This document shows, piece after piece, positions 751 to 30,880 of a DNA stretch of 32,000 nucleotides. The stretch spans positions 1 to 32,000 of the forward strand of contig JAITBP010000011.1 in NCBI GenBank assembly GCA_031283585.1, written 5' to 3'. Each line of letters starts with the position of its first letter. Position 1 is the first letter of the stretch. The notes beneath the pieces were generated by a model. That model saw only the letters and a list, made by a program, of their open reading frames with translations, searched no databases and was not told the DNA's origin. This stretch comes from Puniceicoccales bacterium. GTDB taxonomy: Bacteria > Verrucomicrobiota > Verrucomicrobiia > Opitutales > LL51. The position numbers and the translations under genes are program-made.

Positions 751-2094
751 ATGTGGACGTTTTATGGAATATTTATACAATTAAAATCTATGAATGGATG
801 GACAAAATATATAGGGTTGGCTAGTTTATTAACACTATCTTTATGTACAAATAGTTATGGTTGCTGCTGTGGCTGTGGCTGTGGCTGCGACGTGGATCAA
901 TGTGATTGTGATGATGATGGCTGCGAAGTTTATTGTAGTTGCAATTGTAAATGCGACCATTGTGACGACGTTAATAACAAAAAAATATGTCCGATACCTG
1001 TTGGCATTAATAACAAAAAAATATGTGTGATGCCTGACGACGTTAATAACAAAAAGGTGTGCCCGATACCTGTTGGCATTAATAACAAAAAAATATGTGT
1101 GATGCCTGACGACGTTAATAACAAAAAAATATGCCCGATACCTGTTGGCATTAATAACAAAAAGGTGCATGAGGTAGCTGAATTATGGATGACTCACAGA
1201 AATCATGACGATAATCTCGATTCGGTGGCATTTTGGGATAACAAGATTTACGTCACAGCAAAAGATAGTCATGCCATCCATGTCTATGACGCTAGGAATG
1301 GTATCTATCTTGATAAATTTGGTGGGATGGGTGATGAGTTCGGTCGCATGAATAGGCCAAATGGAATCGCGGCTATTGATAGCATGATCTTTGTTACCGA
1401 AAGAAATAATGGCAGAGTTCAGGTATTTTCCATTCCTGAAAATTCTTCTTCAAATTTTACCCAGGAGTCCATCATGGATTACACGTCAGTGTGTACCTTT
1501 GGAGAAGAGGTTCTTTTAAGACCCTATGGTATTTTTGCCTGTAAAATAAATGGTTATTACGTGATATATGTTACCGATGATGGCAAGTTCAAGGGGTCAG
1601 AAAATGACAATTATAGAAGAGTAGTTGTATTTGTCATGAATAGCGAAATGGATCAGGTCGACCCAGCAAAATTGGGATTACCCGATGAATTTGGTGCGGG
1701 TAAGTTTGAAAAGCTTGAGTCAATTTACGGAAATCTTTGCGATGGAACCCTATTGATTGCCGATGAGGGCACCAATGAATTGCTTCTTTTTTCAATTTTC
1801 GGTAAATATTTAGGTAAAAAAATTACCAGTGAATTTTTCACAGAGGGGGAACCCGAGGGCATTTGGTTTTTTAGAAAAAATGGCAAATCCTATTGGCTTT
1901 CAGCTGAACAGAGGGTGAAAAAAACGACGATATTCCATGTTTTCGATGGCGACCTTAACCACGTGAAATCTTTTTCAGGTTTATATACAAAAAATACCGA
2001 TGGCGTATGTATTGCTGAAACTAAAAATGGTCTGACTCTATTTGCGGTTAATGATGACCAGGCCGTGACTGCGTTTTCGCTAGATTTTATATAA
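751..2094 (+). CDS. Secreted/lipoprotein-like cysteine-rich tandem-repeat protein with C-terminal beta-propeller (phytase/NHL-like) domain
   Basis: 447-aa ORF; the alternative ATG at 790 gives MNGWTKYIGLASLLTLSLC, a signal peptide with a lipobox-like LSLC. Next comes a 14-Cys cluster, CCCGCGCGCDVDQCDCDDDGCEVYCSCNCKCDHCDD, followed by six 12-aa Cys-periodic units (NNKK[IV]C...). The C-terminal ~280 aa carry propeller-blade-like motifs: FGRMNRPNGIAAIDSMIFVTERNNGRVQVF, LESIYGNLCDGTLLIADEG, EPEGIWFF..YWLSAEQ, TDGVCIAE..LFAVNDD. The start codon is uncertain. Confidence 0.7.
   Translation: MWTFYGIFIQLKSMNGWTKYIGLASLLTLSLCTNSYGCCCGCGCGCDVDQCDCDDDGCEVYCSCNCKCDHCDDVNNKKICPIPVGINNKKICVMPDDVNNKKVCPIPVGINNKKICVMPDDVNNKKICPIPVGINNKKVHEVAELWMTHRNHDDNLDSVAFWDNKIYVTAKDSHAIHVYDARNGIYLDKFGGMGDEFGRMNRPNGIAAIDSMIFVTERNNGRVQVFSIPENSSSNFTQESIMDYTSVCTFGEEVLLRPYGIFACKINGYYVIYVTDDGKFKGSENDNYRRVVVFVMNSEMDQVDPAKLGLPDEFGAGKFEKLESIYGNLCDGTLLIADEGTNELLLFSIFGKYLGKKITSEFFTEGEPEGIWFFRKNGKSYWLSAEQRVKKTTIFHVFDGDLNHVKSFSGLYTKNTDGVCIAETKNGLTLFAVNDDQAVTAFSLDFI
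964..1167 (+). repeat. In-frame 72-nt tandem repeat (about 2.8 copies) with 36-nt sub-period
   Basis: gacgacgtt recurs at 964, 1036 and 1108. The core ttaataacaaaaa[a/g][a/g]t[a/g]tg occurs 6 times at 36-nt spacing. It encodes DDVNNKK[IV]CPIPVGINNKK[IV]CVMP and contains A7 and A5 tracts. Confidence 0.95.
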
Positions 2095-2149
2095 ACAATA
2101 GGTAAATATTAATTGCAAAGAAAAGTTTTTAACATAAAAATTGCATTCT

Positions 2150-3871
2150 ATGTACTTATGGCGTAAAATATTGTTAACGATTTGTTTTCTATACGTCGGC
2201 ACAGTAACTAATAATGCTGAAATAAAGTTAACAATAGTTACAAGTGATGATGAGAGAATTAAGCTGAAGAAGGTTGTTACAAAAAGCAAGAGGCTCAACA
2301 ATTTTCTAAAATCCAAAAATCGAATTGTGTTAAAAATTCCGTTAGAATACGAAAGAGCATTGCTGTTTGCTGTTGAAATATTTCGTATGGCCACCGAAGC
2401 TTCCGAAAATAACGAAAGTATATCCGGTGCAAAAATTTATGAAACCGATTTGATAAGTGATAACGGAGATCTGCTTCCTCTGAGTGAAGAAGACGACATA
2501 CCTTGTTATTGTAAAATTTGCAGTGAATATTTTGACCGCATTTCCTGCGATTATGTGGATAAACATATTGTATTTTTTGCGCCAGAAGATAAGGGAATTG
2601 TATGTTTTATCTCGAAACAGATGGTTACTATTGGTTGTGGATGCAGTCCGTCATGTGACATAGACAAGTATTATAAAACAAAAAAATGTTCCAGTTGGGA
2701 GGATATATATAATGAACTGGAGGGTATGGATGATGCGCTTTGGTTGCTAAAGTCCAGTACTGATTTGGGTGGCACTGACCTATGTATTGCTCTAAAGGAC
2801 AATGATCTGGATCAATATTCCGAGTCGCCATCCGATGCGTTGTATGAGGCCGAGTCACTGCCCGATGTGCCTGAATCCACTTCTGAATTAACCAGTGGAG
2901 TGCCTAGAAGTTATTCAACGCTTAAAATTGTACCAAATGGAAAAGGCAAAAAGAGTAAGAAGAGCAAAAAAGATAAAAAAGATAAAGAAAGATCTGTACC
3001 AGACACCTATGTTAATGATCCGGTGGAGGAAGTTGACCAGGAGGAAAAAGAATCATCCTGTTGTTGTATACCCAAGTGTTTGAAATCGAAGACAGCTATC
3101 GCATGTTATGTTGGTATAGCGGGTATTGCCTGTGCCGGAGCGTTGTATTATAATTGGCCAGAGGTCGCTAGTTGGGCAAATTCGTTCGGTAGCAGTGCAG
3201 CCGGCGCATTAAAATCCGCGGCAACTAGTGTTTCTCATGGCTGTATGGTTGCGGCTGATAAAACAAAAGATTTTTTTTGCAATTCATGGAAATTTATTAC
3301 CGGCATTGGTAGCCTAGGCTTTTTTGGATCCAATGATCAGCCAAGTCATCCTTCTTGTGATATTCCTACCAATGAAATTCAGCCAAGTAGCAATAAATAT
3401 GTAAGTTGTTCTTGTAATATTCCTATCAATGAAATTCTGCCAAATAGCAATAAATATGTAAGTCGTTCTTGTAATGTTCCTACCAATGAAATTCTGCCAA
3501 GTAGCAATAAATATGTAAGTCGTTCTTGTAATGTTCCTACCAATGAAATTCCGTCAAGTAGCAATAAATATGTAGGTTGTTCTTGTAATGTTCCTACCAA
3601 TGAAATTCCGTCAAGTAGCAATAAATATGTAGGTTGTTCTTGTAATATTCCTACCAATGAAATTCCGCCAAGTAGCAATAAATATGTAAGTCGTTCTTGT
3701 GATATTCCTACCAATGAAGTTCCGCCAAGTAGCAATAAATATGTAAGGCGTTCTTGTGATATTCCTACCAATGAAGTTCCTCCAAGTAGCAATAAATATG
3801 TCAATTGTAAAAAATATGTCATGTGTAGTAATGATTGGCAATGTACAGATATTAATTTATGTAAAAAATAG
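2150..3871 (+). CDS. Hypothetical membrane-associated repeat protein (signal peptide, Cys-containing N-domain, acidic and poly-Lys tracts, one TM helix, 8 x 19-aa C-terminal repeats)
   Basis: The ORF is open from TTG 2141; ATG 2150 gives MYLWRKILLTICFLYVGTVTNNA, which is signal-peptide-like. It contains a KGKKSKKSKKDKKDKE tract and CCCIPKC followed by the hydrophobic helix AIACYVGIAGIACAGALYY. It then has eight repeats of SC[ND][IV]P[TI]NE[IV]xPxSNKYVxx and a Cys-rich tail, KKYVMCSNDWQCTDINLCKK. I recognise no family. Confidence 0.7.
   Translation: MYLWRKILLTICFLYVGTVTNNAEIKLTIVTSDDERIKLKKVVTKSKRLNNFLKSKNRIVLKIPLEYERALLFAVEIFRMATEASENNESISGAKIYETDLISDNGDLLPLSEEDDIPCYCKICSEYFDRISCDYVDKHIVFFAPEDKGIVCFISKQMVTIGCGCSPSCDIDKYYKTKKCSSWEDIYNELEGMDDALWLLKSSTDLGGTDLCIALKDNDLDQYSESPSDALYEAESLPDVPESTSELTSGVPRSYSTLKIVPNGKGKKSKKSKKDKKDKERSVPDTYVNDPVEEVDQEEKESSCCCIPKCLKSKTAIACYVGIAGIACAGALYYNWPEVASWANSFGSSAAGALKSAATSVSHGCMVAADKTKDFFCNSWKFITGIGSLGFFGSNDQPSHPSCDIPTNEIQPSSNKYVSCSCNIPINEILPNSNKYVSRSCNVPTNEILPSSNKYVSRSCNVPTNEIPSSSNKYVGCSCNVPTNEIPSSSNKYVGCSCNIPTNEIPPSSNKYVSRSCDIPTNEVPPSSNKYVRRSCDIPTNEVPPSSNKYVNCKKYVMCSNDWQCTDINLCKK
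3353..3808 (+). repeat. In-frame 57-nt tandem repeat, 8 copies
   Basis: Units start at 3353, 3410, 3467, 3524, 3581, 3638, 3695 and 3752. The copies at 3524-3580 and 3581-3637 are identical 57-mers; the others differ by a few substitutions. A degenerate partial unit follows (KKYVMC). Confidence 0.97.
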
Positions 3872-3941
3872 CGGTATGAGGATGTTAGGTGATCACTTAG
3901 ATCTTTAAAAGCCATATAATTTGATTAGCATTCAAATCACC

Positions 3942-5933
3942 ATGGGTATCATAAGTTTTCTCAGATCATTATTATCAAGCAGTGTTGCTGCGACTAATCT
4001 CCTAACTAAAATTCCAAAAAGCGCGCTGCTGGAGAGCTCTATTGAAAATATTAAAGAATGGTATGAGTGTGGAAACTCCCAGGCAATTGTCCATGAAGCG
4101 ATCGGCGAGCTTGTTGAAGCAGGTGAGTTCAATGAATTAAATGACAGGTTTTTTAAAACACTTACCTTTGGAACCGGAGGTATCCGCGGGAGGACCATAT
4201 CTGGCTATATTACAAAGGCTGAAATTGGCAATGGATCGAAGATTTTACCAGAATTTCCTGCCATTGGCAGTGCCTGTCTGAATCACTTCAATGTCATTCG
4301 AGCTACCATTGCATTGCATGAATACTGCAAGAAAGTGGCGGTTTCCCAGGGCCGTGAAATGCTGTTGGTTGTGGCCTATGACGTGAGGTTTTTTTCAAAA
4401 TTATTTGCAGAAATAACGGCAAAAACCTGGGAATACCTTGGCGGTAAAGCAATGATTTTCGATGGACCCAGGTCCACTCCTCAGCTTAGTTTTTCCGTTA
4501 GATATTTCAGGGCCATGGCTGGTGTTGTTATTACCGCTAGCCACAATCCCTATTACGATAACGGTTATAAGGCCTATTTTGCAGATGGAGCCCAGGTAAT
4601 TGACCCTCAGGCTGCTGCCATAATAGAGAATTTTTCCAAGCTGAAGTTGGCGGATAGCATGGCCATATTTAAAGCCATCGAAGCCAAAGAGTTTACTAAT
4701 ACCGTATCCGGTAAAGACGAAGAGCGCTATGTCCAGGTGGTGAAGGATTCGGTTCTAGACAGAGCTTCATTGAAGAATTGTGCCAAAAAAGTTGTGTTTA
4801 CTCCATTGCATGGAACCGGTGGTGTGGTAGCTGTGCCTGCATTGCAATCTCTTGGAGTCGAAGTAATCTGTGTGGAAGAACAAATGAAGCAGGATCCTGG
4901 GTTCAGCACAGTAAAGTCTCCGAATCCGGAAAATTTCGATTCTCTAAAGCTGGCGATAGATAGGGCTAAAGCCACTGGAGCTGACCTGGTAATTGCCACT
5001 GATCCGGATGCCGATCGCATGGCCATTGCTGCCAAAAACAATGACGGAGAGTTTGAAAAATTTTCCGGAAATCTGACCGCATCGCTTTTGCTCGAATATC
5101 GGATTAGAAAAATGAAAGAGCTTGGAATTTTACCGAAGGATGGCTCCAAAAACGCCGTGGTGCTGAAAACGTTTGTAACCACACCGCTGGTAGAAAAAAT
5201 AGCCATTAGTCATGGATTGAAGTGTGTAAATACACTCACTGGGTTTAAATGGATTGGTAGTAAAATCAACAACTATGCGCTGGGTTTAATGGAAAAGGTT
5301 GGTAATGTCCACGATGGTTATGACGATATCGAACTGGATGAAAGAAGAAAGCTTCTGCTCCAGCATAGCCAATTTTGTATCTTTGGCTGCGAAGAGAGCT
5401 ACGGTTGTCTAGCCAGCGATTTGGTCCGAGATAAGGATGCCAATGCCGCCGCAGCGATGGTCTGTGAAATGCTGGCCGAGCTGGACAAAAAGTCCATAAC
5501 ACTGATGGACTTTCGTATGGAAATTTATTCTACCTATGGCTACTATGACGACACATTGTTGAATATATATTATGAAGGCGCCAGCGGTGTAGCCAGGATT
5601 AAGAATATTTTGAGCTCCTATAGAAAAAATCCGCCGGAAACGGTGGCTGGCCAGAAGGTTTTAAAGATCCAGGATTTCCTGAATGATCCTATCCTAGATG
5701 CGGACGGTTGTCATGTACCCAGGGAGGATTTTCTATTTCTAGAGCTGGAAAATGGCGATACCTATGCGGTGCGCGGAAGCGGTACCGAGCCGAAAATAAA
5801 ATTTTATATATTTTGCCATGGGGAAGGTGCAGGTTATGGAACCGAAATCGATGTCGTTGGCAAAATAAAATCTAGGCTCGATGCCCTGAAGGGTTTTTTA
5901 GAGGCCGATGCAGAAGTCCGTTCGGCTGGTTAA
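3942..5933 (+). CDS. Phosphoglucomutase/phosphomannomutase-family phospho-sugar mutase (alpha-D-phosphohexomutase)
   Basis: Motifs seen: TFGTGGIRG; active-site phosphoserine loop ITASHNPYYDNGYKAY; Mg-binding loop ATDPDADRMA; sugar-binding loop GCEESYG; C-terminal phosphate-binding RGSGTEPKIKFY. The start is uncertain (TTG 3921 or ATG 3942). Either gives a Ser-rich N-terminal extension of about 35 aa compared with PgcA-type enzymes as I remember them. Confidence 0.9.
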   Translation: MGIISFLRSLLSSSVAATNLLTKIPKSALLESSIENIKEWYECGNSQAIVHEAIGELVEAGEFNELNDRFFKTLTFGTGGIRGRTISGYITKAEIGNGSKILPEFPAIGSACLNHFNVIRATIALHEYCKKVAVSQGREMLLVVAYDVRFFSKLFAEITAKTWEYLGGKAMIFDGPRSTPQLSFSVRYFRAMAGVVITASHNPYYDNGYKAYFADGAQVIDPQAAAIIENFSKLKLADSMAIFKAIEAKEFTNTVSGKDEERYVQVVKDSVLDRASLKNCAKKVVFTPLHGTGGVVAVPALQSLGVEVICVEEQMKQDPGFSTVKSPNPENFDSLKLAIDRAKATGADLVIATDPDADRMAIAAKNNDGEFEKFSGNLTASLLLEYRIRKMKELGILPKDGSKNAVVLKTFVTTPLVEKIAISHGLKCVNTLTGFKWIGSKINNYALGLMEKVGNVHDGYDDIELDERRKLLLQHSQFCIFGCEESYGCLASDLVRDKDANAAAAMVCEMLAELDKKSITLMDFRMEIYSTYGYYDDTLLNIYYEGASGVARIKNILSSYRKNPPETVAGQKVLKIQDFLNDPILDADGCHVPREDFLFLELENGDTYAVRGSGTEPKIKFYIFCHGEGAGYGTEIDVVGKIKSRLDALKGFLEADAEVRSAG

Positions 5934-6446: not shown

Positions 6447-7208
6447 GTGAGAAAATACATATGTGGTTTGATTTTTGCATTGTCCGTTTTTTGTGGTGGC
6501 TGCGGAAGTGAAAATGGCAGCGAAACCATAAGATTCGGAACCTGTGCGGATTACCCTCCATTCGAGTATTATAAAAATGGTGTTTTGGTTGGATTTGAAG
6601 TTGATCTTGTAAAGATTATTGCCGAGAGACTTGGGAAAAAAGCAGTCTTTGAAGACATGGCTTTTTCGACGCTTTTGACCTCATTGAACAATGGGTTTAT
6701 CGATGCTGTTATTTCTGGCTATGGTTCTAGCCAGGAGAAAAGGGAAAAGTATGGCATCACGTTCGTATATTATCCAGAAAAATTGGTGTTTGTGTATAAA
6801 GAGCCGAATTCTATAACCAGCAAAGACCAGTTGGCTAGGAAAAAGGTCGCCTATCAACTCGGTATCCCGGGCATGAAGAAATGGCTAAGGGAAAACATCC
6901 CCGATGCTGAGCCGGTGCTTATGGATAGGATGGAGCTGGCTGTGGAATCATTGAAGGCTGGTCATGTGGATTGTATTATTATAGACGAGTTTGTGGCAAA
7001 TGTATTCTGTGAAAAAAATCCTGGCCTTAAATGCTTTGTGCCAGATTGTTTAAAAATCAGCGATGGCCTAGCGATTGTGACCAGGAAAAACGCATCTTTG
7101 AAAGAAGAGATAAATAAAATTCTAAAAACCTTGGAAACGACTGGCGAACTGCAGAAATTAAAAGAAAAATGGGGCCTAAAGGAAAAATGGAAATTGCTGG
7201 AGAAATAG
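6447..7208 (+). CDS. Polar amino-acid ABC transporter substrate-binding protein (family 3 SBP), copy 1
   Basis: 253 aa with a GTG start and an N-terminal signal/lipoprotein-like segment, LIFALSVFCGGCGSE. It has SBP_bac_3-type motifs GTCADYPPFEY, GFEVDLVKIIAERLGK, VISGYG and DCIIIDEFVA. Confidence 0.85.
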   Translation: MRKYICGLIFALSVFCGGCGSENGSETIRFGTCADYPPFEYYKNGVLVGFEVDLVKIIAERLGKKAVFEDMAFSTLLTSLNNGFIDAVISGYGSSQEKREKYGITFVYYPEKLVFVYKEPNSITSKDQLARKKVAYQLGIPGMKKWLRENIPDAEPVLMDRMELAVESLKAGHVDCIIIDEFVANVFCEKNPGLKCFVPDCLKISDGLAIVTRKNASLKEEINKILKTLETTGELQKLKEKWGLKEKWKLLEK

Positions 7209-8054: not shown

Positions 8055-8712
8055 TCTCGATCCAGGCTTAGGGTTTGATAAAATTGCTCAAAATTTCCTG
8101 TTCATTGGCCATGGCATTGAAATTTCGCTAAAATTATTATTTGGCGGAATTTTTATTGGAATTTTATTTGGCGGAATATTGTCTATACTCAGGTACAGTG
8201 GAATGTGTAGACCAGTGATAAATGGGTTCATATCCATCATAAGAGGTACACCGGTCATGCTGCAATTGAGTTTCGTGTACTTCATAACCCCAGGTATCAT
8301 CGGTGTCAAACTTGGTATAATATCTGCAGGTATCATTGCCTTTGGCATAAATAGCTCCGCCTATATCGCCGAAATACTAAGGTCCGGCATAGAGAGTTTG
8401 CCAAAAGGACAGTTCGAAGCTGCACAAACATTGGAAATCCCAGGTTTTTATATTTGGAGAGATATCATATTACCCCAGGTCATTGCAAATATTTTGCCAG
8501 CCATGGTAAACGAAGTTATTTCTTTGCTGAAAGAAACTGCACTGATTGCAACCATAGGTGGTATGGATATTATGAGAAGATCCCAGGCGATTGCCGCAGA
8601 ACAATATGAGTATTTCATGCCATTGTGTATTGCTGCGCTTTATTATTACAGCCTTGTCTTGATTATTGAATTTGTCGGTAGAAAAATCGAACGCAGGAGA
8701 GCTCTATGGTAA
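8038..8712 (+). CDS. Amino-acid ABC transporter permease (His/Glu/Gln/Arg/opine family)
   Basis: 224 aa and multi-TM. The EAA-loop region reads SSAYIAEILRSGIESLPKGQFEAAQTLEIPGFYIWRDIILPQV. It overlaps the SBP2 stop by 17 nt, so the start is uncertain. Confidence 0.88.
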   Translation: MGAICDLDPGLGFDKIAQNFLFIGHGIEISLKLLFGGIFIGILFGGILSILRYSGMCRPVINGFISIIRGTPVMLQLSFVYFITPGIIGVKLGIISAGIIAFGINSSAYIAEILRSGIESLPKGQFEAAQTLEIPGFYIWRDIILPQVIANILPAMVNEVISLLKETALIATIGGMDIMRRSQAIAAEQYEYFMPLCIAALYYYSLVLIIEFVGRKIERRRALW

Positions 8713-9446: not shown

Positions 9447-10517
9447 TTACAAAAATTCTTCTATTTTATCCGCCACTTTACCGGTAACGTCTGCGGTTGA
9501 TGCGTCAATGCATGCGGTTATCATGCCTGACAGTTTTTCCCTGTTGGTGAGAATCGAGATAAGTACATCAAATAACATATTGAGGTTGTTTTGGGTTACC
9601 TTCACTGCACAGCCATTTTGTTCGGCAGTATTTGCGTTTTCTTCCTGATGATTTTCTGCTGCAAGAGGATAGGGGACTAAAATCATAGGCGTATGGCAGG
9701 TAATGCATTCGGCGATGGTGCTTGCTCCAGCTCTTGCTACCGCGATGTCGGCGGCATGGAGTAGTGTATTCATATCGTCGCTAAATGGCTCAAAAGTTAT
9801 GCTGCACCCTCCCTGGGTTATCTTTTGGCTTTTTGTGTCCAGACCACCTAGGCAGTAACAATTTATGTGGTGCTGTGCTAAATTATTTACATTTTCCTGT
9901 ACCCACTGGCTAAGAGCTTTGGCTCCCTGGCTACCACCTAAAACCAGCAGCAATTTCTCCCGGTTGTCAATGCCTAACATTTTCTTAGCTAACGCCTTAT
10001 CCATATCACATAGTTCTTTCCTGGTGGGCGTGCCTAGGTTTATAAGCTTTGTGCTTTTGACATGTAATTTGGTCTTTATGCCACCGGATGGAAGAATTAT
10101 TAGGTCGGCTAGTCTACAAAGAGCTCTTGTGGATTTGCCAGCGATGGTGTTTGATTCGTGGAGTATAAGTGGTATATTTTTTACTTTCGATGCCACCGCA
10201 AATCCAACGGATGTAAAACCACCGAAGCATACTGTGCAGTTTATCTTCTTTTCTTCTAAGGTCCTGAGTGCGTTGAAGATTTCAATGCCCTGGGAGAACG
10301 CAAATTTTATAAATTTCAGCGGTGATTTTGAAAATGGCAGTGATCCGGTGGTGATGAAATGAAACTGGGAATATTTTTCGATAAATCTGCTATCGATTTT
10401 CTTCCTGCTGGTGCAGATAAAACAGCTGTGACCCCTGGCCTGAAGTTCCTCGGCCACGGCTATGCCTGGAGCCATATGGCCTCCGGAGCCACCACAGACT
10501 ATCAGTATGTTATTCAT
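9447..10517 (-). CDS. murG: Undecaprenyldiphospho-muramoylpentapeptide beta-N-acetylglucosaminyltransferase
   Basis: The N-terminus NILIVCGGSGGHMAPGIAVAEEL is the G-loop 1 of MurG. LLVLGGSQGA follows, and the C-terminal region reads ARAGASTIAE...PMILVPYPLAAENHQEENA. ATG 10517 overlaps the upstream stop by 8 nt (ATGAATAA). Confidence 0.9.
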   Translation of the reverse strand: MNNILIVCGGSGGHMAPGIAVAEELQARGHSCFICTSRKKIDSRFIEKYSQFHFITTGSLPFSKSPLKFIKFAFSQGIEIFNALRTLEEKKINCTVCFGGFTSVGFAVASKVKNIPLILHESNTIAGKSTRALCRLADLIILPSGGIKTKLHVKSTKLINLGTPTRKELCDMDKALAKKMLGIDNREKLLLVLGGSQGAKALSQWVQENVNNLAQHHINCYCLGGLDTKSQKITQGGCSITFEPFSDDMNTLLHAADIAVARAGASTIAECITCHTPMILVPYPLAAENHQEENANTAEQNGCAVKVTQNNLNMLFDVLISILTNREKLSGMITACIDASTADVTGKVADKIEEFL

Positions 10518-22341: not shown

Positions 22342-23554
22342 CCCGGGAACCTGTCTGTAAAAAAGCCAGCGCATGTTCCAGTTCTTGCTCATCCGAAAGA
22401 AGTTCTATTTCTACACGCAGATAATAGGCCGGTAGAGAAAATTTGAAATCTTTCTCCAGCCGTACGGAGTCTTTTTCAGTTGTAACTATAACATCTGCAC
22501 TGACATAGGATGCATTTTCATCCATGCGCTCCAGTTCACCTATCAGGAATCTATGGTGGTCGAGAAATCTTCTTTTATAGACCACATGACCGCCGATGGT
22601 TTTTATGAAGTTTTCAAAGCTATCTGGCATGGCGATGCCACTAAATACGGCCACACGCTTGGCTTTCAAGTACCGTAACGGCTTGATGGAGTTATCTCCT
22701 AGACTTACCAAATGCTTTGGTGTGTGTCGACAATATATTATTTTCGCATTTCGGTTGTGTTTACGGATCGTTTGCTCCAGTTTTACATCGGCCCTGTCAT
22801 CGGACTTTGTAACAACCACACAGGAGGCTCGGCTGATATGGCTTATTGGTTCTCTAAGTATCCCACAGGGAAGGAGTTTGCCATTGCCAAAGGGATTTGT
22901 CCTGTCTATCAACAGCCACTGCATATTTGTCGACAGCCTGAAATACTGAAAGCCGTCGTCTAGCAAAAGCACGTCGGCGCCAAATGTTTTTATGGCGTAA
23001 TTTCCTGCCTTCACCCGATCCTTGTCGACGATCACCGGTATGCCAGGCAAATTCCTTGCAAGCATAAATGGTTCGTCGCCGGCTTTTTCCGAACACAGCA
23101 ACAGGGTCGCGCCATTACTAACAACTTTAGGTGGAGGAGGTTGTCTATGAGTCATCCACCTAAAAAATCTTTTTATCAGTGGATCTTTTTTACTTTTATA
23201 ACCTCGGCTTATGATAGCAACCTTTCTGCCTTCTTTGAGCAATTTTTTCGCCAACATTTCCGTGACCGGTGTTTTTCCGGTGCCGCCAACGGTTAAATTT
23301 CCAATAACTATGACCGGACAGCCAAGGGAAAATGATGTTAAAATTTTGTTTTTGTACATCACTTTTCTTATTTTTACGATGATGGTGAACAGGTAGGATA
23401 GTGGCAGGAGCACGGATATGAACAATTTTGATTTGTGGTCAGTCCTTCTTCCATAGAGCACATCGGACAGAAACTCCGCCAGTGCATCTGTTTTTCGCTC
23501 AATATTCCTGATTTTTTTTTTGAAAAAGTACCTGATTTTTCTTATTTGTCTCAT
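22286..23554 (-). CDS. lpxK: Tetraacyldisaccharide 4'-kinase
   Basis: P-loop context [18 protein letters not shown], plus [16 protein letters not shown] and [12 protein letters not shown] 23554 forms an ATGA overlap with the holA stop; GTG 23569 is an alternative start. The 3' end overlaps the thyA 3' end. Confidence 0.88.
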
Positions 23555-24618
23555 AGCATGTGCATACACCTTCTATACAGGTTCACCATGACTTCTTGCT
23601 GGGAATCATGGCGTTTTATAAGCAAAAAGAACGTGTTGGAAAATAGGAGTTGAAATTCCATTAATTGTTTTATTGTGAACATATTAGTGCTTGAAGCAAT
23701 TTTGTTAATATACCAGGGATTTTGACTAAAAATGCTGTAGCTGGTTTTAGGTTTTCTGGTATCCTGATCAATTTTATATTTTTTTTCAAGCCCATTTAGC
23801 ATGTCCTGGGTCAGGTTCGTTTCAATGTTATGTAGCCGGCGCAGGGCGGCGATTTGTAACATCAACCTGGTTCTGCTCTGTAGCGCCGATAGCAATGGTC
23901 TGGCTTCGGAGGTTTTGGCAAAATATTTACCTATGGTTTTAATGGCAATTTGGTGATTTTTTTGAAAAAATAGATCAACGGTTTCAAAGAAATCGCTATC
24001 CTGCGCTTCCGTGACAACGTCATCTATGTCTTTCTCTAGCACAGTCTTTCGTGGATATATATAGGTAATAAGTTTATCAATTTCGTTGAAAATAGTCCGA
24101 GAATCGTTGCCGGTTTTTGAGATTATTTTTTCCAAAAGCGTTTTGGTCAGTGAGATTCCATTGCTCTCGAGATAGTTCGATACGGCTGTTAGTGTGTTAT
24201 TTAATTTACTTGAATCCAAGTACTTATAATTGCAAACCTCGGACAGTATTTTCAGAAATCTGGATCTTCTGTCCACCGGAGAGGCAGACAGGATAAGATC
24301 GCAATGATTGCATTGTTTTATTTGGTCTATCAGTGTGGAAATTTTTTCACGAACGGCTTCAGATTTGCTTAGGGCGTTGTCTCCCAAGAAATTAGCATTT
24401 CGTAACCAGAGGAATTTTCTGGCACAGAACATCGGCAAGGTTGCCAGCGAAATGCATAGGTCTTCCAACAGGGTTATTGTTTCGTTAACCGTTGAACAGT
24501 AACAGTTAAAAATCTCGGCAGCCGACTCATCCGGGCATAATTTTTTGTAAATTTCACCAGCAACCCGATCTACCATAAAATCATCGTTGCCACAAATAAA
24601 ATGACAATTTTGGTTCAT
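23551..24618 (-). CDS. holA: DNA polymerase III subunit delta
   Basis: 355 aa. The N-terminus HFICGNDDFMVDRVAGEIYKKL is like the YLLYGED.FL start of HolA. The size and helical C-terminal half fit, and it sits in an operon with lpxK. There is no catalytic motif to anchor on. Confidence 0.6.
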   Translation of the reverse strand: MNQNCHFICGNDDFMVDRVAGEIYKKLCPDESAAEIFNCYCSTVNETITLLEDLCISLATLPMFCARKFLWLRNANFLGDNALSKSEAVREKISTLIDQIKQCNHCDLILSASPVDRRSRFLKILSEVCNYKYLDSSKLNNTLTAVSNYLESNGISLTKTLLEKIISKTGNDSRTIFNEIDKLITYIYPRKTVLEKDIDDVVTEAQDSDFFETVDLFFQKNHQIAIKTIGKYFAKTSEARPLLSALQSRTRLMLQIAALRRLHNIETNLTQDMLNGLEKKYKIDQDTRKPKTSYSIFSQNPWYINKIASSTNMFTIKQLMEFQLLFSNTFFLLIKRHDSQQEVMVNLYRRCMHML

Positions 24619-26086: not shown

Positions 26087-27451
26087 CTATATGGTGTTTG
26101 CTGAAAGGCTTTGTTCCGACAATGGCGTCATTTTACCGTCCTTGAACAGAGTGATTTGGTTTGTACTTTCCGACACGGTGATTGCCAGGCTGTTGGAAAC
26201 AAGCGATATGATTGCTGCGGCTGCATGTCGAGTTCCCAGGCCGCTTGGCATCTGGATCTTATGGTTGTTTGGCGCCTGTATTAATGTGCCGGCCGATTCT
26301 ATGACGCCATCGCCCCGGACAATAAATGCGCCATCTATGGATGAAAATTCTTTCACCGTTTCAGCCATAAACGGGTTCAGAATATTCCTTTCATCCTCTT
26401 TGTACCCAAAGAACGGGTTCAGAACCAGTTGCTTAGTAAACGGTCTTATTTTCTCTATATCTCCCAAAACAAATAGACAGCCAACGGGTTTCCCCTCTCG
26501 ACCTTCTATGGAAATATCGCCAACTATGGCCAGTAACCGCTCAAGGACTTCAGGTCTAATGCCATCATGCAGAAACATTTTCCCATTGGTCACCGATGAA
26601 CTGAATTCTTTGGCTATATCTATGATAGATATGGTATCAAAAAGATTACTTTTGGTTATACCGGAGATGCAGCATATCTTTTCATCGCCTTGGATTAATC
26701 CTCGGGTTAACCCTATTATTATCGCGCTTCTCAATTGAGCCAACCTGTGAGATGAAAAAGATTGCACAAAAATCACATTGTTAGAGAGACTTGGCCGAAC
26801 CGAACCGGCAGTTGTTTTCTGTGTAACAAACAATATCTTCAATTCATTGAACTTGTCCATGCCAGGGTAGTAATCGCCGGTTATGACATCATCGAAGATC
26901 ATTACGGCAGAACACCTGGCGGCGGTGGCTATCTGTTTGGCTTTATTGAAAATTAGGTTATTGAATTTCGTTTCACCGAGATTTTCGGTGGGCTTACTTT
27001 TCCCAAATATCTTGCCTATTTCCGATCTAAACGCGGACAGAGAGGATTGGTTCTGTAAATTATTTATCGTGGATTGATCCTGTAACATTCTTGCTAGCGT
27101 AGCCAATGTGCTCAGGTATAAGCCTTCACCTTCGGCTGATAGCAACAAAAACAATATTTTTATCTGTTTATAACTCGATGAATTGTCATAGGACAGACCA
27201 TTGGGGCAGCGGCCGATGGCAAAAACATATGGTTTTGTCATCTTCAATTTAGCATGGGGCATGGCTATGCCGTCACCCAGATAGGTTGTTATGGTCTTTT
27301 CAGAATCTAGAATGCGTTGAAGGATTTCATTGTCATCGCCGGAGGATTTTGGAAGATTGCATATTTTCAAAAGCTCGACAATGGCACCATTGAATGTCTT
27401 GCTTTTGATATCAATAATCCTGTCCTTTGCTAGAAACCTGTGTAGATGCAT
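26087..27451 (-). CDS. PTS-EIIA(Ntr)-like / pyruvate-kinase-C-like / diadenylate cyclase (DAC, DisA_N) fusion protein
   Basis: The N-terminal ~145 aa are EIIA type 2-like, with TYLGDGIAMPHAKL (phosphorylatable His context) and KILFLLLSAEG. The middle region reads AKQIATAARCSAVMIFDD...LKILFVTQ...GDEKICCISG. The C-terminal DAC domain reads GREGKPVGCLFVLGD...SSIDGAFIVRGDG...GLGTRHAAAAIIS...LAITVSESTNQITLFKDG. Confidence 0.75.
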   Translation of the reverse strand: MHLHRFLAKDRIIDIKSKTFNGAIVELLKICNLPKSSGDDNEILQRILDSEKTITTYLGDGIAMPHAKLKMTKPYVFAIGRCPNGLSYDNSSSYKQIKILFLLLSAEGEGLYLSTLATLARMLQDQSTINNLQNQSSLSAFRSEIGKIFGKSKPTENLGETKFNNLIFNKAKQIATAARCSAVMIFDDVITGDYYPGMDKFNELKILFVTQKTTAGSVRPSLSNNVIFVQSFSSHRLAQLRSAIIIGLTRGLIQGDEKICCISGITKSNLFDTISIIDIAKEFSSSVTNGKMFLHDGIRPEVLERLLAIVGDISIEGREGKPVGCLFVLGDIEKIRPFTKQLVLNPFFGYKEDERNILNPFMAETVKEFSSIDGAFIVRGDGVIESAGTLIQAPNNHKIQMPSGLGTRHAAAAIISLVSNSLAITVSESTNQITLFKDGKMTPLSEQSLSANTI

Positions 27452-28280: not shown

Positions 28281-30149
28281 ATGGAAAAAGAGACGGTGGA
28301 GAATATTGTGCGTAGGCAGTCATTGCTTGATCACGAAATTGCCAAATTGTATAAAATGGCTAACGGTGCATTTTGTATGCATCAAAGCTGGGGATTTGGC
28401 CAGATAAAAACCTATGACAAAGGCCAAAATAAACTGTTGATCGTCTTTGAGGATGGAGCCGAACATGCCATGGATCCAGCATTCTGTGCCAAGAAGTTAG
28501 AAATTCTCGACGACAATAATGTTCTGGTCCGATTTCATAAGGATAGGGCCGGGATGTTGAAGTTGGCAAAGGAAGATCCGGTTGGCCTTATTATCGAGAT
28601 GATGGCGGCAGAGGCTGACCGAGAAGTTGCTGTGAGCGAGATTGAAAGGGTGTTTAAACGGATAATCGGCGACTTCGCCTATAGAAAATGGTGGGCTTCG
28701 GCAAAAAAATTACTTGCAAAGGATCCTAGGATTTGTCGGTCCGAGGCAAAATCGAATACGTTTATTCTGAGGGAAGAACCTGTAAGCCAAGAGGATACAA
28801 TACTTGAACAGCTGCGTATAAACCGAGATCCACTCAAAAGGGTACAAATTGCAGAAAAAATCCTGGCATTGCCAAAGGAAAGCCGTGCTTCTCTTGAGGC
28901 TGACATAGCTGGTATTGTTGATGACTTGACCGCCTACCTATCTGTTGAGGATCGCAGGCTTACTATTGCCCAAAGGCTTCAGTGTTGTTGGGTTAGGAAT
29001 GATCTTGCTGCTCTGATCGGCTATGATGTGGAGTCATTGGAACCGTCACCTGAATCCATAGTTAAAGACAGTTCGAATTTTGCCAAGCTGATCGATGAGT
29101 TACCAGTAAATTATTATCAAAAATTTTTAGGACTGATAACCTGTGCCTACCCTGACGAATGGGAGTCGTATTGTTCCAATTTGTTAAAAAATAGCAAAGG
29201 AAAATTTACCAATGAATGTGTGCTGTTTTTGATGGATAGAGGATGCGAAGAACTTCTGGCGGACAATTTGCTTAAGTGGTTAAACGAGAGGTCGTTGAAA
29301 TCTTCGGTCCTGTTGTGGCTTGTGAAAAACAGACATGTGAGGAAGTTTGTGAGTGTGATACCTCCAGAGATCATAGGGCCACGATTATTAAAGGCGATAT
29401 TGATGGCAATAGATACGGAGGCGTTGCTTGGTTCTGGCACCAAAAGGATTCCACTGGCTGATATTTTGAGTGAGGATAGGAATTTAATTAAGGATTTGTT
29501 GGTTGGTGCAAATGATGATAGTGCGAAGGATTTAGCTCAAATACTTATTGCTAGCCAAGGATTTGATGATTTGACCAAGAGATCACTGCTGGCGAGATTT
29601 GTCAAAGAATTCCCCGAGGTGCAATCGGTTATTTCAAGTAAACAGGGTGCTGTTAAGGAGGAGGACATTTCGTTGATGGTTTCCCAGGCCAGTTTCGATG
29701 CTCGGACCAAGGAATATGAAGTTATTGTTAATGAAAAAATCCCTGCAAACAAACGTGCCATTGAGGCTGCACGAGAACATGGCGATCTTCGCGAAAATTC
29801 CGAGTATAAGATGGCTAAGCAGGACCAAGATACGTTGCTTGCCCGGAAAGCCCTATTGGAATCCGAGCTTAAGCGGGTTAAGATAATTGATTTTTCTGAG
29901 ACGCCGGGCGGTGTCGTTTCCCTAGGATCTGTCGTTAAATTGAAAGCTGCCCGGGGCAAAGAGACAGCCGAATATGCTGTGCTGGGAGCCTGGGATGGTG
30001 ATCCGGTCCATGGTATTTTGTCCTATAAAACACCGTTGGGCCAGGCGTTACTTGGTAAAAAAGTCGGAGATGTGGTGACAATTAAAATTGGCACAAAGGA
30101 ACAGTCTTGGGAAGTTCAAGGTATAACTAGGTGGGTTGACCGCAAATAG
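28281..30149 (+). CDS. Long GreA-family transcript-cleavage/elongation factor with ~470-aa N-terminal extension
   Basis: The C-terminal ~150 aa form a Gre module. The coiled-coil motif is AAREHGDLRENSEYKMAKQDQDTLLARKALLESELKRVKIID. The FKBP-like domain is GSVVKLK...EYAVLGAWDGDP..GILSYKTPLGQALLGKKVGDVV. The N-terminus contains FCMHQSWGFGQIKTYDKGQNKLLIVFEDGAEHAMDP. Confidence 0.8.
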   Translation: MEKETVENIVRRQSLLDHEIAKLYKMANGAFCMHQSWGFGQIKTYDKGQNKLLIVFEDGAEHAMDPAFCAKKLEILDDNNVLVRFHKDRAGMLKLAKEDPVGLIIEMMAAEADREVAVSEIERVFKRIIGDFAYRKWWASAKKLLAKDPRICRSEAKSNTFILREEPVSQEDTILEQLRINRDPLKRVQIAEKILALPKESRASLEADIAGIVDDLTAYLSVEDRRLTIAQRLQCCWVRNDLAALIGYDVESLEPSPESIVKDSSNFAKLIDELPVNYYQKFLGLITCAYPDEWESYCSNLLKNSKGKFTNECVLFLMDRGCEELLADNLLKWLNERSLKSSVLLWLVKNRHVRKFVSVIPPEIIGPRLLKAILMAIDTEALLGSGTKRIPLADILSEDRNLIKDLLVGANDDSAKDLAQILIASQGFDDLTKRSLLARFVKEFPEVQSVISSKQGAVKEEDISLMVSQASFDARTKEYEVIVNEKIPANKRAIEAAREHGDLRENSEYKMAKQDQDTLLARKALLESELKRVKIIDFSETPGGVVSLGSVVKLKAARGKETAEYAVLGAWDGDPVHGILSYKTPLGQALLGKKVGDVVTIKIGTKEQSWEVQGITRWVDRK

Positions 30150-30151
30150 TT

Positions 30152-30880
30152 ATGAACCTGTCGCTGGGACTTAATATCATTGTTGATTTACTGTTTCCGC
30201 GCTATTGTTGTTCCTGTGGTAGACTGCTTAGGGCCAGCGAGTTTCGCTACCTGTGCGACTACTGTGTTTCGCAAATATGCCGCATAACCGAACCGCTATG
30301 TCTATCCTGTGGAGCTCCTTTTCACGGTTATATCGCCGATGATGGTAGGATTTGTGCCAAATGTAGGGTTAATCCTCCGAAGTTCAACAGGGCCATATCC
30401 ATGTGGGTGTTCGATGGCGTTGCCCGGAAGATTATCCATGAGCTGAAGTATAAATCCGGAGAATATATGCTGCTGGACATTGAACGTATGGTTTCTCAAA
30501 ACAAATCATTTATAGAACTAATTTCTTCCTCTGTTCTTGTGCCCGTGCCAATCCATTGGCGGAGACTTTTTTACCGTGGCTATAACCAAAGTGAATTGAT
30601 AGCGAAGATGTTATGTAAAATTACCAAAAATTCGACGGTGAGGAATTTGTTGATCAAAAAAAAGCATAATCGGTCCCAGACGGAGCTGTCGTCGGACAAT
30701 AGGGTGAGAAATGTGGCCGGGTCTTTTGCCCTGTGCAAGAAAATCGATTTGCCAAAGCATGTCAAAATTGTTATTGTAGATGATGTTATGACCACCGGCG
30801 CGACGGTAAACGAGTGCGTGAAACAATTCAATGAAGAGGGCTATTATAACCTGTTTGTGGCGACACTTGCCCGGGATTGA
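30152..30880 (+). CDS. comF: ComF-family protein (zinc-ribbon + phosphoribosyltransferase domain)
   Basis: N-terminal Cys pairs CCSCG...CDYC...CLSCGAPF...CAKC, plus KYKSGEYM, VPVPIHWRRLFYRGYNQSELIA and the PRTase motif IVIVDDVMTTGATVNEC. Confidence 0.85.
   Translation: MNLSLGLNIIVDLLFPRYCCSCGRLLRASEFRYLCDYCVSQICRITEPLCLSCGAPFHGYIADDGRICAKCRVNPPKFNRAISMWVFDGVARKIIHELKYKSGEYMLLDIERMVSQNKSFIELISSSVLVPVPIHWRRLFYRGYNQSELIAKMLCKITKNSTVRNLLIKKKHNRSQTELSSDNRVRNVAGSFALCKKIDLPKHVKIVIVDDVMTTGATVNECVKQFNEEGYYNLFVATLARD

What the first reader, a model, noticed from the sequence alone, without database searches (positions are those of the whole stretch)
751..3871. AT-rich two-gene accessory locus encoding cysteine-rich, tandem-repeat, exported proteins
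Two adjacent same-strand genes (751-2094 and 2150-3871) interrupt otherwise conserved housekeeping genes, between the ACT-protein gene and the phosphohexomutase gene. They share several features that no other gene in the window has.
- Both have N-terminal signal-like peptides.
- Both are unusually rich in Cys, including runs of CCC.
- Both carry long, near-perfect in-frame tandem DNA repeats.
- Their repeat units have a similar grammar: C-x-[IVM]-P-x-[ND]-...-N-K-[KY]-[IV].
- They look noticeably more AT-rich. Hand counts of single 60-nt lines give about 30-38% GC here versus about 50% in lines from glyQS and much higher in one gatA line; the whole regions were not computed.
I recognise no family for the repeat modules. 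This combination is typical of rapidly evolving surface or host-interaction proteins, and disulfide-crosslinked Cys-rich envelope proteins are a known theme in Chlamydiae. It may be a lineage-specific envelope or effector pair that has not been characterised.
Basis: partly seen in the sequence, partly recalled or inferred. Interest (0 to 1): 0.7.

Follow-up and report, generated by a model that had tools for sequence, protein, structure and literature searches.

The report
Fast-evolving secreted propeller and membrane-protein pair
Two neighbouring genes in a termite-gut Verrucomicrobia genome encode a probably secreted six-bladed propeller protein on a cysteine-rich stalk and a probable membrane protein of unknown family; both recently gained tandem repeats, which makes this a real but fairly ordinary lineage-specific surface-protein locus.

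Summary
In detail: two same-strand genes (790/751-2094 and 2150-3871) lie between an ACT gene and a phosphohexomutase gene. Both have signal-like N-termini, 5.4-5.9% Cys, CCC runs and in-frame tandem repeats (72 nt x2.8; 57 nt x7.9; 94% identity), and both are about 2 SD more AT-rich than their neighbours.

The interpretation needs correcting. The source is a Puniceicoccales (Verrucomicrobiota) MAG, and relatives come from lower-termite guts; it is not Chlamydiae. Two thirds of gene 1 is a confidently modelled six-bladed NHL-type beta-propeller with a remote link to Bacillus beta-propeller phytase. The pair is not a recent insertion: ACT-gene1-gene2-PGM is syntenic in two related MAGs, and gene2-PGM in a fourth contig.

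Gene 2 is a true orphan, with only three relatives among 1.8 billion representatives and no Pfam, PDB or usable AlphaFold signal. It evolves fast (26-29% identity, against 63-78% for the propeller and PGM). The large repeats are specific to this genome and sit in two hypervariable segments: the gene 1 stalk and the gene 2 tail. The proposed shared repeat grammar does not exceed chance.

Best reading: a lineage-specific exported or surface module with slippage-prone variable regions. Its function has not been shown.

The parts
790..861 (+). Gene 1 likely true start (Met14 of the 751 ORF) and Sec-type signal peptide, MNGWTKYIGLASLLTLSLCTNSYG, with a small-x-small (S-Y-G) cleavage site.
   Evidence: Orthologs P0002 and P0003 start at the aligned Met and have the same n/h/c layout. 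By inspection only; SignalP was not available.
862..963 (+). Gene 1 Cys/Asp cluster, CCCGCGCGCDVDQCDCDDDGCEVYCSCNCKCDHC. It has 14 Cys in 34 residues (41%) with CxC/CC motifs.
   Evidence: AlphaFold gives no confident structure (pLDDT <35). It cannot be aligned to orthologs, which nevertheless carry their own Cys/Lys-rich segments here.
963..1167 (+). Gene 1 in-frame tandem repeat: 72 nt x2.8 (36-nt half-units x5.4), encoding alternating NNKK[IV]CPIPVGI and NNKKICVMPDDV. The last unit runs into the conserved start of the propeller.
   Evidence: TRF and unit listing. Absent from L001. L002 has different small repeats at the same position.
1168..2094 (+). Gene 1 six-bladed NHL-type beta-propeller with a remote beta-propeller-phytase (BPP) link. 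Each blade carries a conserved x-[DEN]-[GS] plus [TA]-[DEAK]-[DEKRQ] motif pair (DNLDS/VTAK, RPNG/VTER, RPYG/VTDD, KLES/IADE, EPEG/SAEQ, NTDG/VNDD).
   Evidence: - Pfam NHL 26.3 bits against a cut-off of 20.
- AlphaFold pLDDT >90 over residues 139-447.
- Foldseek top hits are the Thin/Brat/TRIM2/TRIM71 NHL domains, E 1e-13, TM 0.73-0.79.
- Profile against PDB: TRIM71 4e-27, Bacillus phytase 7e-5 to 2.8e-8.
- 63-68% identity to orthologs.
2150..2218 (+). Gene 2 start (ATG 2150, not TTG 2141) and signal-like peptide MYLWRKILLTICFLYVGTVTNNA.
   Evidence: L002 ortholog starts MYLWYRVLLVTCLWFAVNCKA|EVE. L001 upstream frame reads MCLCYRILSVIYFLVVVTCNA|EVK.
2219..2839 (+). Gene 2 conserved N-terminal region of unknown fold. 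Its family signature is DDALWLLK...DLCI.LKD. In this genome it carries an extra Cys-rich insert (about residues 113-133).
   Evidence: Alignment A1 invariant columns. No Pfam, PDB, PADLOC or PHROG match. AlphaFold pLDDT about 30.
2840..3058 (+). Gene 2 low-complexity acidic then Lys-rich linker (KGKKSKKSKKDKKDKE), with a small 9/19-nt repeat at 2948-2993.
   Evidence: The Lys-rich stretch (residues ~264-279) aligns to gaps in all three orthologs; the flanking acidic stretches align only weakly.
3059..3289 (+). Gene 2 CCC motif, the single hydrophobic transmembrane-like helix (residues 316-334, AIACYVGIAGIACAGALYY) and the following conserved small-residue helix.
   Evidence: The only 19-residue window with hydropathy above 1.4. 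Conserved Y320, G322, L332, P337 and S341 in all four family members.
3335..3801 (+). Gene 2 in-frame tandem repeat, 57 nt x about 8, encoding NKYV[SG][CR]SC[ND][IV]PTNE[IV]P[PS]SS. Neighbouring units differ by 2 nt and distant ones by 6-8 nt.
   Evidence: TRF. Unit matrix: 10 of 11 variable nucleotide columns change the amino acid. Absent in orthologs, but the L004 tail has CDVPD/CPTDQ at the equivalent place and L002 has a 12-nt x2.8 repeat there.
3802..3871 (+). Gene 2 short Cys-rich C-terminal end (…NCKKYVMCSNDWQCTDINLCKK) and stop codon. GC is 0.21.
   Evidence: Orthologs also end in short Cys/Lys-rich tails.

Best explanation
This is a vertically inherited two-gene module specific to a small clade of termite-gut Puniceicoccales.

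Gene 1 encodes a Sec-exported six-bladed NHL/BPP-type beta-propeller. Its top face carries conserved acidic and polar residues in every blade, so it is a candidate Ca2+-dependent ligand-binding or phosphohydrolase domain. The propeller sits on a disordered, hypervariable Cys-rich stalk.

Gene 2 encodes a fast-evolving orphan protein with a signal-like N-terminus, a conserved domain of unknown fold, one transmembrane-like helix and a hypervariable Cys-containing tail. It is most likely a membrane-anchored partner or neighbour at the cell surface.

The two hypervariable segments (gene 1 stalk, gene 2 tail) are hot spots for replication slippage. In this genome each has recently amplified a short local sequence into an in-frame tandem array, which lengthens and diversifies the exposed part without touching the folded domains.

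Shown: the anatomy, propeller fold, synteny, divergence rates, lineage-specificity of the repeats and composition.

Inferred: export, surface location, any Ca2+ or phosphatase chemistry, and any interaction between the two proteins or with a protist host.
For: - Source: NCBI names the records 'MAG: Puniceicoccales bacterium'.
- Source of a related MAG: isolate Gsp477_bin142, where Gsp477 is a Glyptotermes (lower termite) gut metagenome (PMC11707648).
- Synteny: ACT-gene1-gene2-PGM in L001 and L002, and gene2-PGM in L004.
- Propeller: Pfam NHL above its cut-off.
- Propeller model: pLDDT >90, with Foldseek top hits to NHL domains.
- Remote link to BPP: Bacillus phytase chains at E 2.8e-8, aligning the EPEG, NTDG and NDD motifs to phytase EVYG, TEGM and EED.
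- Family conservation: 27 invariant columns across seven relatives, including a Naegleria protein that UniRef names 'BPP domain-containing'.
- Divergence from the orthologs: ACT 55-56%, PGM 75-78%, propeller 63-68%, gene 1 N-terminus no hit, gene 2 26-29%.
- Gene 2 is an orphan: only P0012 and P0013 among 1.84 billion representatives, and nothing in Pfam, PDB, PADLOC or PHROGs.
- Repeats: in frame at 94% identity, with a neighbour-similarity gradient.
- Repeats in relatives: none in L001, and different small repeats at the same two positions in L002.
- Repeat origin: the gene 2 unit resembles a single CDVPD motif in the L004 tail.
- Operon: no terminator-like site between ACT and the tRNA-Ser after PGM.
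Against: - No signal-peptide or topology predictor could be run.
- For gene 2, Lys residues lie on the N-terminal side of the hydrophobic helix. That fits poorly with a simple 'signal peptide plus stop-transfer anchor' topology.
- The gene 2 model is useless (pLDDT 33), so nothing is known about its fold.
- Pfam's BPP model (PF02333) did not match any of the seven family members at E <= 10, and Foldseek ranks NHL domains above phytase. Any enzymatic role is therefore a guess.
- Only one genome carries these arrays and no second strain was found. Copy-number variation, and the assembled copy number itself, are unverified.
- Functional coupling of the two genes rests on adjacency in three genomes only.
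Confidence: 0.55

Rival explanations
1. One reading: a disulfide-crosslinked, Cys-rich envelope protein pair analogous to the chlamydial outer membrane complex (OmcA/OmcB/MOMP), which stiffens the envelope.
For: High Cys content concentrated in exported, unstructured segments (41% over 34 residues in gene 1; 8-9% in gene 2 after residue 300). Cys-richness of these segments persists in orthologs although their sequence does not.
Against: - The organism is Verrucomicrobiota, not Chlamydiae.
- The window carries murG (Glyco_transf_28), a gene of the lipid II step. So there is at least no sign that peptidoglycan synthesis has been lost.
- No hit to any chlamydial OMP family.
- Most of the mass of gene 1 is a soluble propeller, not a structural envelope protein.
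- Own knowledge: a termite gut or protist interior is anoxic and reducing, which does not favour extensive disulfide networks.
Confidence: 0.08
2. Gene 1 is a genuine secreted beta-propeller phytase or phosphatase that harvests phosphate (and chelated metals) from inositol phosphates of wood or of the protist host. The Cys/Asp cluster acts as a metallothionein-like metal trap, and gene 2 is its membrane tether or uptake partner.
For: - JGI names P0002-P0004 '3-phytase' and UniRef names P0007 'BPP domain-containing protein'.
- The family profile matches Bacillus phytase chains at E 7e-5 to 2.8e-8.
- Family-invariant acidic residues align to phytase positions that, from my memory of the TS-Phy structure, are Ca2+ ligands (Y159, E211, E227 region).
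- The Cys cluster has metallothionein-like composition with CxC motifs.
Against: - Pfam PF02333 gave no hit for any family member.
- The phytase match covers only two blades.
- The best sequence and fold matches are non-enzymatic NHL domains.
- No metallothionein model matched.
- The Cys cluster sequence is not conserved between orthologs.
Confidence: 0.2
3. The features are signs of decay or artefact. These would be weakly constrained hypothetical ORFs in a reducing genome that accumulate AT-rich low-complexity expansions with no function, or the arrays would be mis-assembled from short reads.
For: - Low GC3, lowest in the repeats.
- 10 of 11 variable sites between gene 2 units are nonsynonymous, which is compatible with no constraint.
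- Gene callers disagree on gene 1: the JGI call P0001 starts inside the repeat, and no NCBI protein for gene 1 was returned.
- The PGM gene of L001 is split into two ORFs, which shows imperfect assemblies or decay in this clade.
Against: - Both ORFs are intact over 434 and 573 codons.
- All repeat periods are multiples of three.
- The propeller is as conserved as the housekeeping neighbours (63-68%).
- Gene 2 keeps 28 invariant columns, a signal peptide and a TM helix across four genomes.
- Unit-to-unit differences (2-8 nt) allow unambiguous assembly of order, though not necessarily of copy number.
Confidence: 0.1
4. A recently acquired horizontally transferred island, as the AT-richness and position between housekeeping genes might suggest.
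For: GC and GC3 are about 2-4 SD below the window's other genes. The propeller family has relatives in a eukaryote (Naegleria) and on 22-25% GC contigs with eukaryote-like neighbours (PRORP, zf-AN1).
Against: - The same order ACT-gene1-gene2-PGM occurs in genomes whose housekeeping proteins are only 55-78% identical, so any transfer predates the clade.
- No mobile-element genes, and no tRNA directly flanking the pair: tRNA-Gly lies upstream of ACT and tRNA-Ser follows PGM.
- In L001 and L002 the pair has the GC of its contig.
Confidence: 0.05

Closest known systems
NHL-repeat six-bladed beta-propellers (Pfam PF01436; solved examples Brat, Thin, TRIM2/3/71, Mei-P26)
   Same: One repeat scores above Pfam's gathering threshold. 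The whole C-terminal 310 residues model as a six-bladed propeller that superposes on these domains (TM 0.73-0.79, E about 1e-13).
   Different: Those are intracellular eukaryotic RNA- or protein-binding domains within TRIM-NHL proteins. This one is bacterial, follows a signal peptide and a Cys-rich repeat stalk, and has its own set of invariant acidic residues. Identity is only 16-19%.
Bacillus beta-propeller phytase (PhyC/TS-Phy; PDB 3AMR, 1H6L, 2POO)
   Same: A secreted bacterial six-bladed propeller. The family profile matches it at E 2.8e-8 over two blades, with blade motifs x-E/D-G and acidic doublets aligned. Database names '3-phytase' and 'BPP domain' are attached to relatives.
   Different: No match to Pfam PF02333. 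The similarity is partial, and NHL domains are closer in both sequence and fold. Catalytic competence is untested.
Chlamydial cysteine-rich outer membrane complex proteins (OmcA, OmcB)
   Same: Exported, very Cys-rich proteins encoded by adjacent genes in a PVC-superphylum bacterium.
   Different: No sequence relationship, a different phylum and a different architecture (propeller plus orphan TM protein). Crosslinking is untested.
Surface proteins with slippage-driven in-frame tandem repeats (the general class, e.g. mycoplasma Vlp lipoproteins or staphylococcal SD-repeat adhesins; own knowledge)
   Same: Near-identical in-frame units confined to an exposed, unstructured segment. Copy number and unit sequence differ between close relatives, while the folded domain is conserved.
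   Different: No homology. Strain-level copy-number variation could not be shown here. The units are Cys-containing and Asn/Lys-rich, unlike those families.

Membership tests
NHL-repeat beta-propeller (Pfam PF01436 / six-bladed propeller clan) | At least one NHL repeat scoring above the curated Pfam threshold | tested here: met
   26.3 bits against a cut-off of 20 at residues 201-226. 5 of 7 family members match NHL.
NHL-repeat beta-propeller (Pfam PF01436 / six-bladed propeller clan) | Six-bladed propeller fold superposable on solved NHL domains | tested here: met
   AlphaFold pLDDT >90 over residues 139-447, with 24 strands in six sheets. Foldseek top 21 PDB hits are all NHL domains, TM (target-normalised) 0.73-0.79 for all but the longer filamin-NHL entry 6fq3 (0.54).
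Beta-propeller phytase (BPP; Pfam PF02333, PROSITE PS51662) | Significant match to the curated BPP family model | tested here: not met
   PF02333 was not reported for any of 7 family members at E <= 10. Only PF13449 'Phytase-like' appeared, weakly, in 3 members (best E 0.0099).
Beta-propeller phytase (BPP; Pfam PF02333, PROSITE PS51662) | Sequence homology to solved BPP enzymes, including the Ca2+-ligand acidic residues | tested here: inconclusive
   The profile matches 3AMR/1H6L/2POO at E 7e-5 (whole profile) and 2.8e-8 (C-terminal profile), but only over phytase residues 96-207. EPEG, NTDG and NDD align to EVYG, TEGM and EED. Assigning those positions as Ca2+ ligands rests on my memory of the TS-Phy literature.
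Beta-propeller phytase (BPP; Pfam PF02333, PROSITE PS51662) | Ca2+-dependent phytate hydrolysis | not testable with these tools
   Needs an enzyme assay.
Chlamydial Cys-rich outer-membrane-complex proteins (OmcA/OmcB) | Sequence membership in the chlamydial OMP families | tested here: not met
   No such Pfam or NCBIfam hit at E <= 1 to 10 for either protein or their orthologs.
Chlamydial Cys-rich outer-membrane-complex proteins (OmcA/OmcB) | Host organism in Chlamydiota | tested here: not met
   The records are named Puniceicoccales bacterium.
Chlamydial Cys-rich outer-membrane-complex proteins (OmcA/OmcB) | Intermolecular disulfide crosslinking in the envelope | not testable with these tools
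   Needs reducing versus non-reducing envelope proteomics.
Metallothionein-like metal-binding segment (gene 1 residues 38-71 of the 751 ORF) | About 30% or more Cys in CxC/CC motifs with few aromatic residues | tested here: met
   14 Cys in 34 residues (41%), with CCCGCGCGC, CDC, CSCNCKC and CDHC, and one Tyr. This is composition only.
Metallothionein-like metal-binding segment (gene 1 residues 38-71 of the 751 ORF) | Match to a metallothionein family model, or conserved Cys pattern among orthologs | tested here: not met
   No Pfam or NCBIfam metallothionein hit. The N-terminal region gives no BLAST hit to orthologs.
Sec-exported proteins (both genes) | N-terminal signal peptide with n/h/c regions and a signal peptidase site | tested here: inconclusive
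   Present by inspection and conserved in orthologs. No SignalP, LipoP or DeepTMHMM was available. The charge distribution around the gene 2 TM helix is ambiguous.
Skp1/BTB-POZ fold (my own lead for gene 2 residues 24-80) | Profile similarity to Skp1 | tested here: not met
   hhalign of A1 against human SKP1 gives probability 0.09%. There is no BTB or Skp1 Pfam hit.

The most novel reading that the evidence does not exclude
The pair is a host-interaction module of protist-associated termite-gut Verrucomicrobia. A BPP-like propeller shared with protists (Naegleria-type relatives), and possibly exchanged with a eukaryotic host lineage, would act on host inositol phosphates or glycans. It would be displayed on a metal-binding Cys stalk. 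Together with an orphan membrane partner, it would carry tandem arrays of a short Cys-x-[IV]-Pro motif that expand and contract to tune or vary host contact.
Probability: 0.1. Interest if true: 0.55.

Novelty: new member of a known kind. Interest (0 to 1): 0.3.

Why it matters
If the surface or host-interaction reading is right, the locus gives a concrete handle on how an uncultured termite-gut Verrucomicrobia lineage meets its environment or a flagellate host. That handle is a conserved propeller, two rapidly changing segments and a clade-restricted partner protein. The lineage may belong to the clade of protist endosymbionts described in PMC8204192.

The gene 2 family, with four known members and no detectable relatives or fold, is a small piece of real protein 'dark matter'. 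The propeller family sits between NHL and BPP domains and could help define where phytase-type chemistry begins in that superfamily.

On present evidence, though, this is one of many lineage-specific, repeat-bearing hypothetical surface-protein loci. It does not open a new question.

Tried and rejected
- **Skp1/BTB-like N-terminal domain in gene 2.** This was my impression from the sequence. It is rejected: hhalign probability 0.09%, with no Pfam or PDB profile hit.
- **Fold search for gene 2.** Not possible, because the AlphaFold model has mean pLDDT 33.
- **Word-index homology searches for gene 2**, alone and as a four-sequence profile. They returned only the query itself. The exhaustive HMMER search found the orthologs, plus about ten repeat-only matches that are unrelated repetitive ORFs.
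- **Collection scans.** Metagenome scans with both family alignments found nothing. The genome scan re-found only the L001 contig. Viral scans found nothing.
- **Exact-protein look-up for gene 2.** It found no other contig, so strain-level repeat variation could not be assessed.
- **AFDB fold library.** The BFVD viral library gave only generic propeller hits.
- **Other family libraries.** Defence (PADLOC), phage (PHROGs) and RNA (Rfam) searches found nothing relevant.
- **Shared repeat grammar between the two genes.** It does not exceed composition-preserving shuffles.
- **Promoter and terminator scans.** Counts do not exceed the shuffled expectation.

Full report

Largely yes. The + strand carries an ACT_8 gene (264-734), an ORF at 751-2094, an ORF at 2141/2150-3871 and a PGM/PMM-family gene (3921-5933).

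Tandem Repeats Finder reports two arrays:
- A 72-nt unit x2.8 (36-nt half-unit x5.4) at 963-1163, with 94% matches.
- A 57-nt unit x7.9 at 3352-3801, with 94% matches.

All periods are multiples of three and the arrays are read in frame.

Cys content is 5.4% and 5.9%, with CCC runs at gene 1 residues 38-40 and gene 2 residues 304-306.

Both N-termini look like Sec signal peptides, and the orthologs share this layout. For gene 1 the orthologs start at the Met that corresponds to nt 790, so 790 rather than 751 is the probable start.

GC is 0.379 and 0.368, against 0.432 +/- 0.027 for the 27 other ORFs. GC3 is 0.359 and 0.286, against 0.450 +/- 0.042. This is a real but modest shift whose extremes lie in the repeats and the gene 2 tail.

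Two statements are overstated:
- Other genes in the window also have high Cys (30152-30880, a double zinc-ribbon protein, 5.35%) or a signal peptide (6447-7208).
- The proposed common 'grammar' of the two repeat units is no better than composition-preserving shuffles (peptide 49% of shuffles, DNA 8%). The short motifs are rare elsewhere in the window, but they were defined post hoc.

**2. Where does it come from?**

Gene 2 is identical to NCBI MDR2735788.1, 'MAG: hypothetical protein LBB20_03055 [Puniceicoccales bacterium]', on a 74.9-kb contig. The closest relatives of gene 1 are in two other Puniceicoccales MAGs.

One of these is isolate Gsp477_bin142. Gsp477 is a Glyptotermes (lower termite) gut metagenome of a large termite MAG survey (PMC11707648).

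Verrucomicrobia of a 'termite/Nucleococcus cluster' are known endosymbionts of termite-gut protists (PMC8204192). The window has no 16S gene, so I could not test whether this MAG belongs to that cluster.

It may have been prompted by features such as a 622-residue GreA with a long N-terminal extension.

**3. Gene 1**

AlphaFold, run with a seven-sequence alignment, gives two parts:
- Residues 1-136 are unstructured (pLDDT <35).
- Residues 139-447 form a six-bladed beta-propeller with pLDDT >90.

Evidence on the propeller family:
- Foldseek against the PDB ranks NHL domains first: Thin, Brat, TRIM2/3/71 and Mei-P26, at E about 1e-13 and TM 0.73-0.79.
- Pfam's NHL model passes its threshold once.
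- A family profile matches TRIM71 NHL at 4e-27 and Bacillus beta-propeller phytase at 7e-5. With a C-terminal profile, the phytase match is 2.8e-8.
- In the phytase alignment, the family's invariant EPEG, NTDG and NDD motifs line up with EVYG, TEGM and EED. From my recollection of the TS-Phy structures, those include Ca2+ ligands.
- Pfam's BPP model itself does not match any of the seven family members.
- JGI calls three relatives '3-phytase', and UniRef calls a Naegleria relative a 'BPP domain-containing protein'.

I therefore file the domain as an NHL-type six-bladed propeller with an unproven BPP-like character.

N-terminal to the propeller, after the signal peptide, come two segments:
- A 34-residue cluster with 41% Cys (CxC/CC motifs, Asp-rich).
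- The tandem array NNKK[IV]CPIPVGI / NNKKICVMPDDV.

**4. Gene 2**

No Pfam, NCBIfam, PADLOC or PHROG family and no PDB sequence matches it. The AlphaFold model is unusable (pLDDT 33).

An exhaustive HMMER search of 1.84 billion representatives found only two relatives, P0012 and P0013 (the L001 and L004 genes), besides unrelated repetitive ORFs. A third relative is the L002 gene at the same position.

The four-sequence alignment shows this layout:
- A conserved signal-like N-terminus.
- A conserved region with the signature DDALWLLK...DLCI.LKD.
- A variable acidic and Lys-rich linker.
- A Cys motif.
- One hydrophobic helix (residues 316-334).
- A conserved small-residue helix.
- A variable Cys-containing tail.

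In the window genome, that tail has become eight units of NKYV[SG][CR]SC[ND][IV]PTNE[IV]P[PS]SS.

**5. Evolutionary behaviour**

The order ACT-gene1-gene2-PGM is conserved in L001 and L002, and gene2-PGM in L004.

Identity between the window and these genomes is:

| Region | Identity |
|---|---|
| ACT | 55-56% |
| PGM | 75-78% |
| Gene 1 propeller | 63-68% |
| Gene 1 N-terminal region | not detectable |
| Gene 2 | 26-29% |

So the propeller is under housekeeping-like constraint, while the stalk and gene 2 evolve fast.

L001 has no tandem repeats. L002 has different small repeats at the same two positions, namely the gene 1 stalk at 8235-8393 and the gene 2 tail at 10369-10402. The L004 tail has a single CDVPD/CPTDQ motif where the window has its array.

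Within the gene 2 array, adjacent units differ by 2 nt and distant ones by 6-8 nt. Ten of the 11 variable columns are nonsynonymous. This is the signature of recent stepwise slippage without purifying selection on the variable positions.

In L001 and L002 the pair has about the GC of its contig, while PGM is GC-richer. The AT-richness is therefore best read as weak constraint under AT-biased mutation, not as foreign origin.

**6. Mechanism**

Best explanation (confidence 0.55): a vertically inherited, clade-specific exported module. A conserved propeller, either ligand-binding or Ca2+-dependent hydrolytic, sits on a Cys-rich hypervariable stalk. Next to it is a fast-evolving orphan membrane protein. 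Both carry slippage-prone exposed segments that expanded recently in this genome.

The anatomy, fold, synteny, rates and repeat dynamics are shown. Export, surface location, chemistry and partnership are inferred.

Rivals:
- A true secreted phytase with a metal-trapping stalk (0.2).
- Non-functional decay or an assembly artefact (0.1).
- Chlamydia-like disulfide-crosslinked envelope proteins (0.08).
- A recent horizontally acquired island (0.05).

**7. Novelty and score**

The architecture is undescribed and gene 2 is a genuine orphan family. But secreted propellers and repeat-bearing, fast-evolving surface proteins are common in host-associated bacteria, and no unusual mechanism is implied. 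I rate it a new member of a known kind, with interest 0.3.

The most novel reading still open is a protist-interaction module with a propeller exchanged with eukaryotes and motif arrays that tune host contact. I give it about 10% probability, and it would merit about 0.55 if true.

Noticed in passing
window 28281-30149 (+): GreA/GreB-family transcription elongation factor of 622 residues. The Gre domains occupy only residues 466-616, so about 460 residues of N-terminal extension have no Pfam match.
   Followed up: partly
window 26087-27451 (-): An unusual fusion: PTS EIIA_2 domain + DacZ_P sensor-like domain + diadenylate cyclase (DAC) domain in one 454-residue protein. This suggests c-di-AMP synthesis coupled to a PTS-type signal.
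   Followed up: no
L005/L006/L007 and L008-L010 (distant relatives P0005, P0006 of the gene 1 propeller): The nearest non-Puniceicoccales relatives of the propeller lack signal peptide and stalk. They lie on 22-25% GC contigs with eukaryote-like neighbours (PRORP + Zc3h12a RNase; zf-AN1), and another relative is from Naegleria gruberi. This hints at a protist or giant-virus-associated branch and possible inter-domain transfer. Scans of the viral contig collection found nothing.
   Followed up: partly
L001 3933-5918: In the related MAG, the PGM ortholog is split into two ORFs (145 + 514 residues) that together align to the single 670-residue window protein. This is a frameshift, a pseudogene or an assembly error.
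   Followed up: no
window 751-2094; protein P0001: Gene callers disagree on gene 1. The JGI call (354 residues) starts at a Met inside the tandem repeat, and no NCBI protein record for gene 1 was returned, although gene 2 has one. The full-length form is supported by the orthologs.
   Followed up: partly
L002 185-6588 and repeats at 3732-4106: Upstream of the syntenic block in L002 lie several large ORFs (582, 1029 and 473 residues) with no Pfam hits and several short tandem repeats. These may be further lineage-specific repeat proteins in this clade.
   Followed up: no
window 3379-3915 (-) and 841-1170 (-): Long antisense ORFs (178 and 109 residues) run through both repeat arrays. They are most likely artefacts of stop-free repeat units, not genes.
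   Followed up: no
window 23551-24618 (-): A 355-residue ORF with no Pfam match at E <= 1e-5, low GC (0.389) and 3.1% Cys. It is another uncharacterised gene in the window.
   Followed up: no
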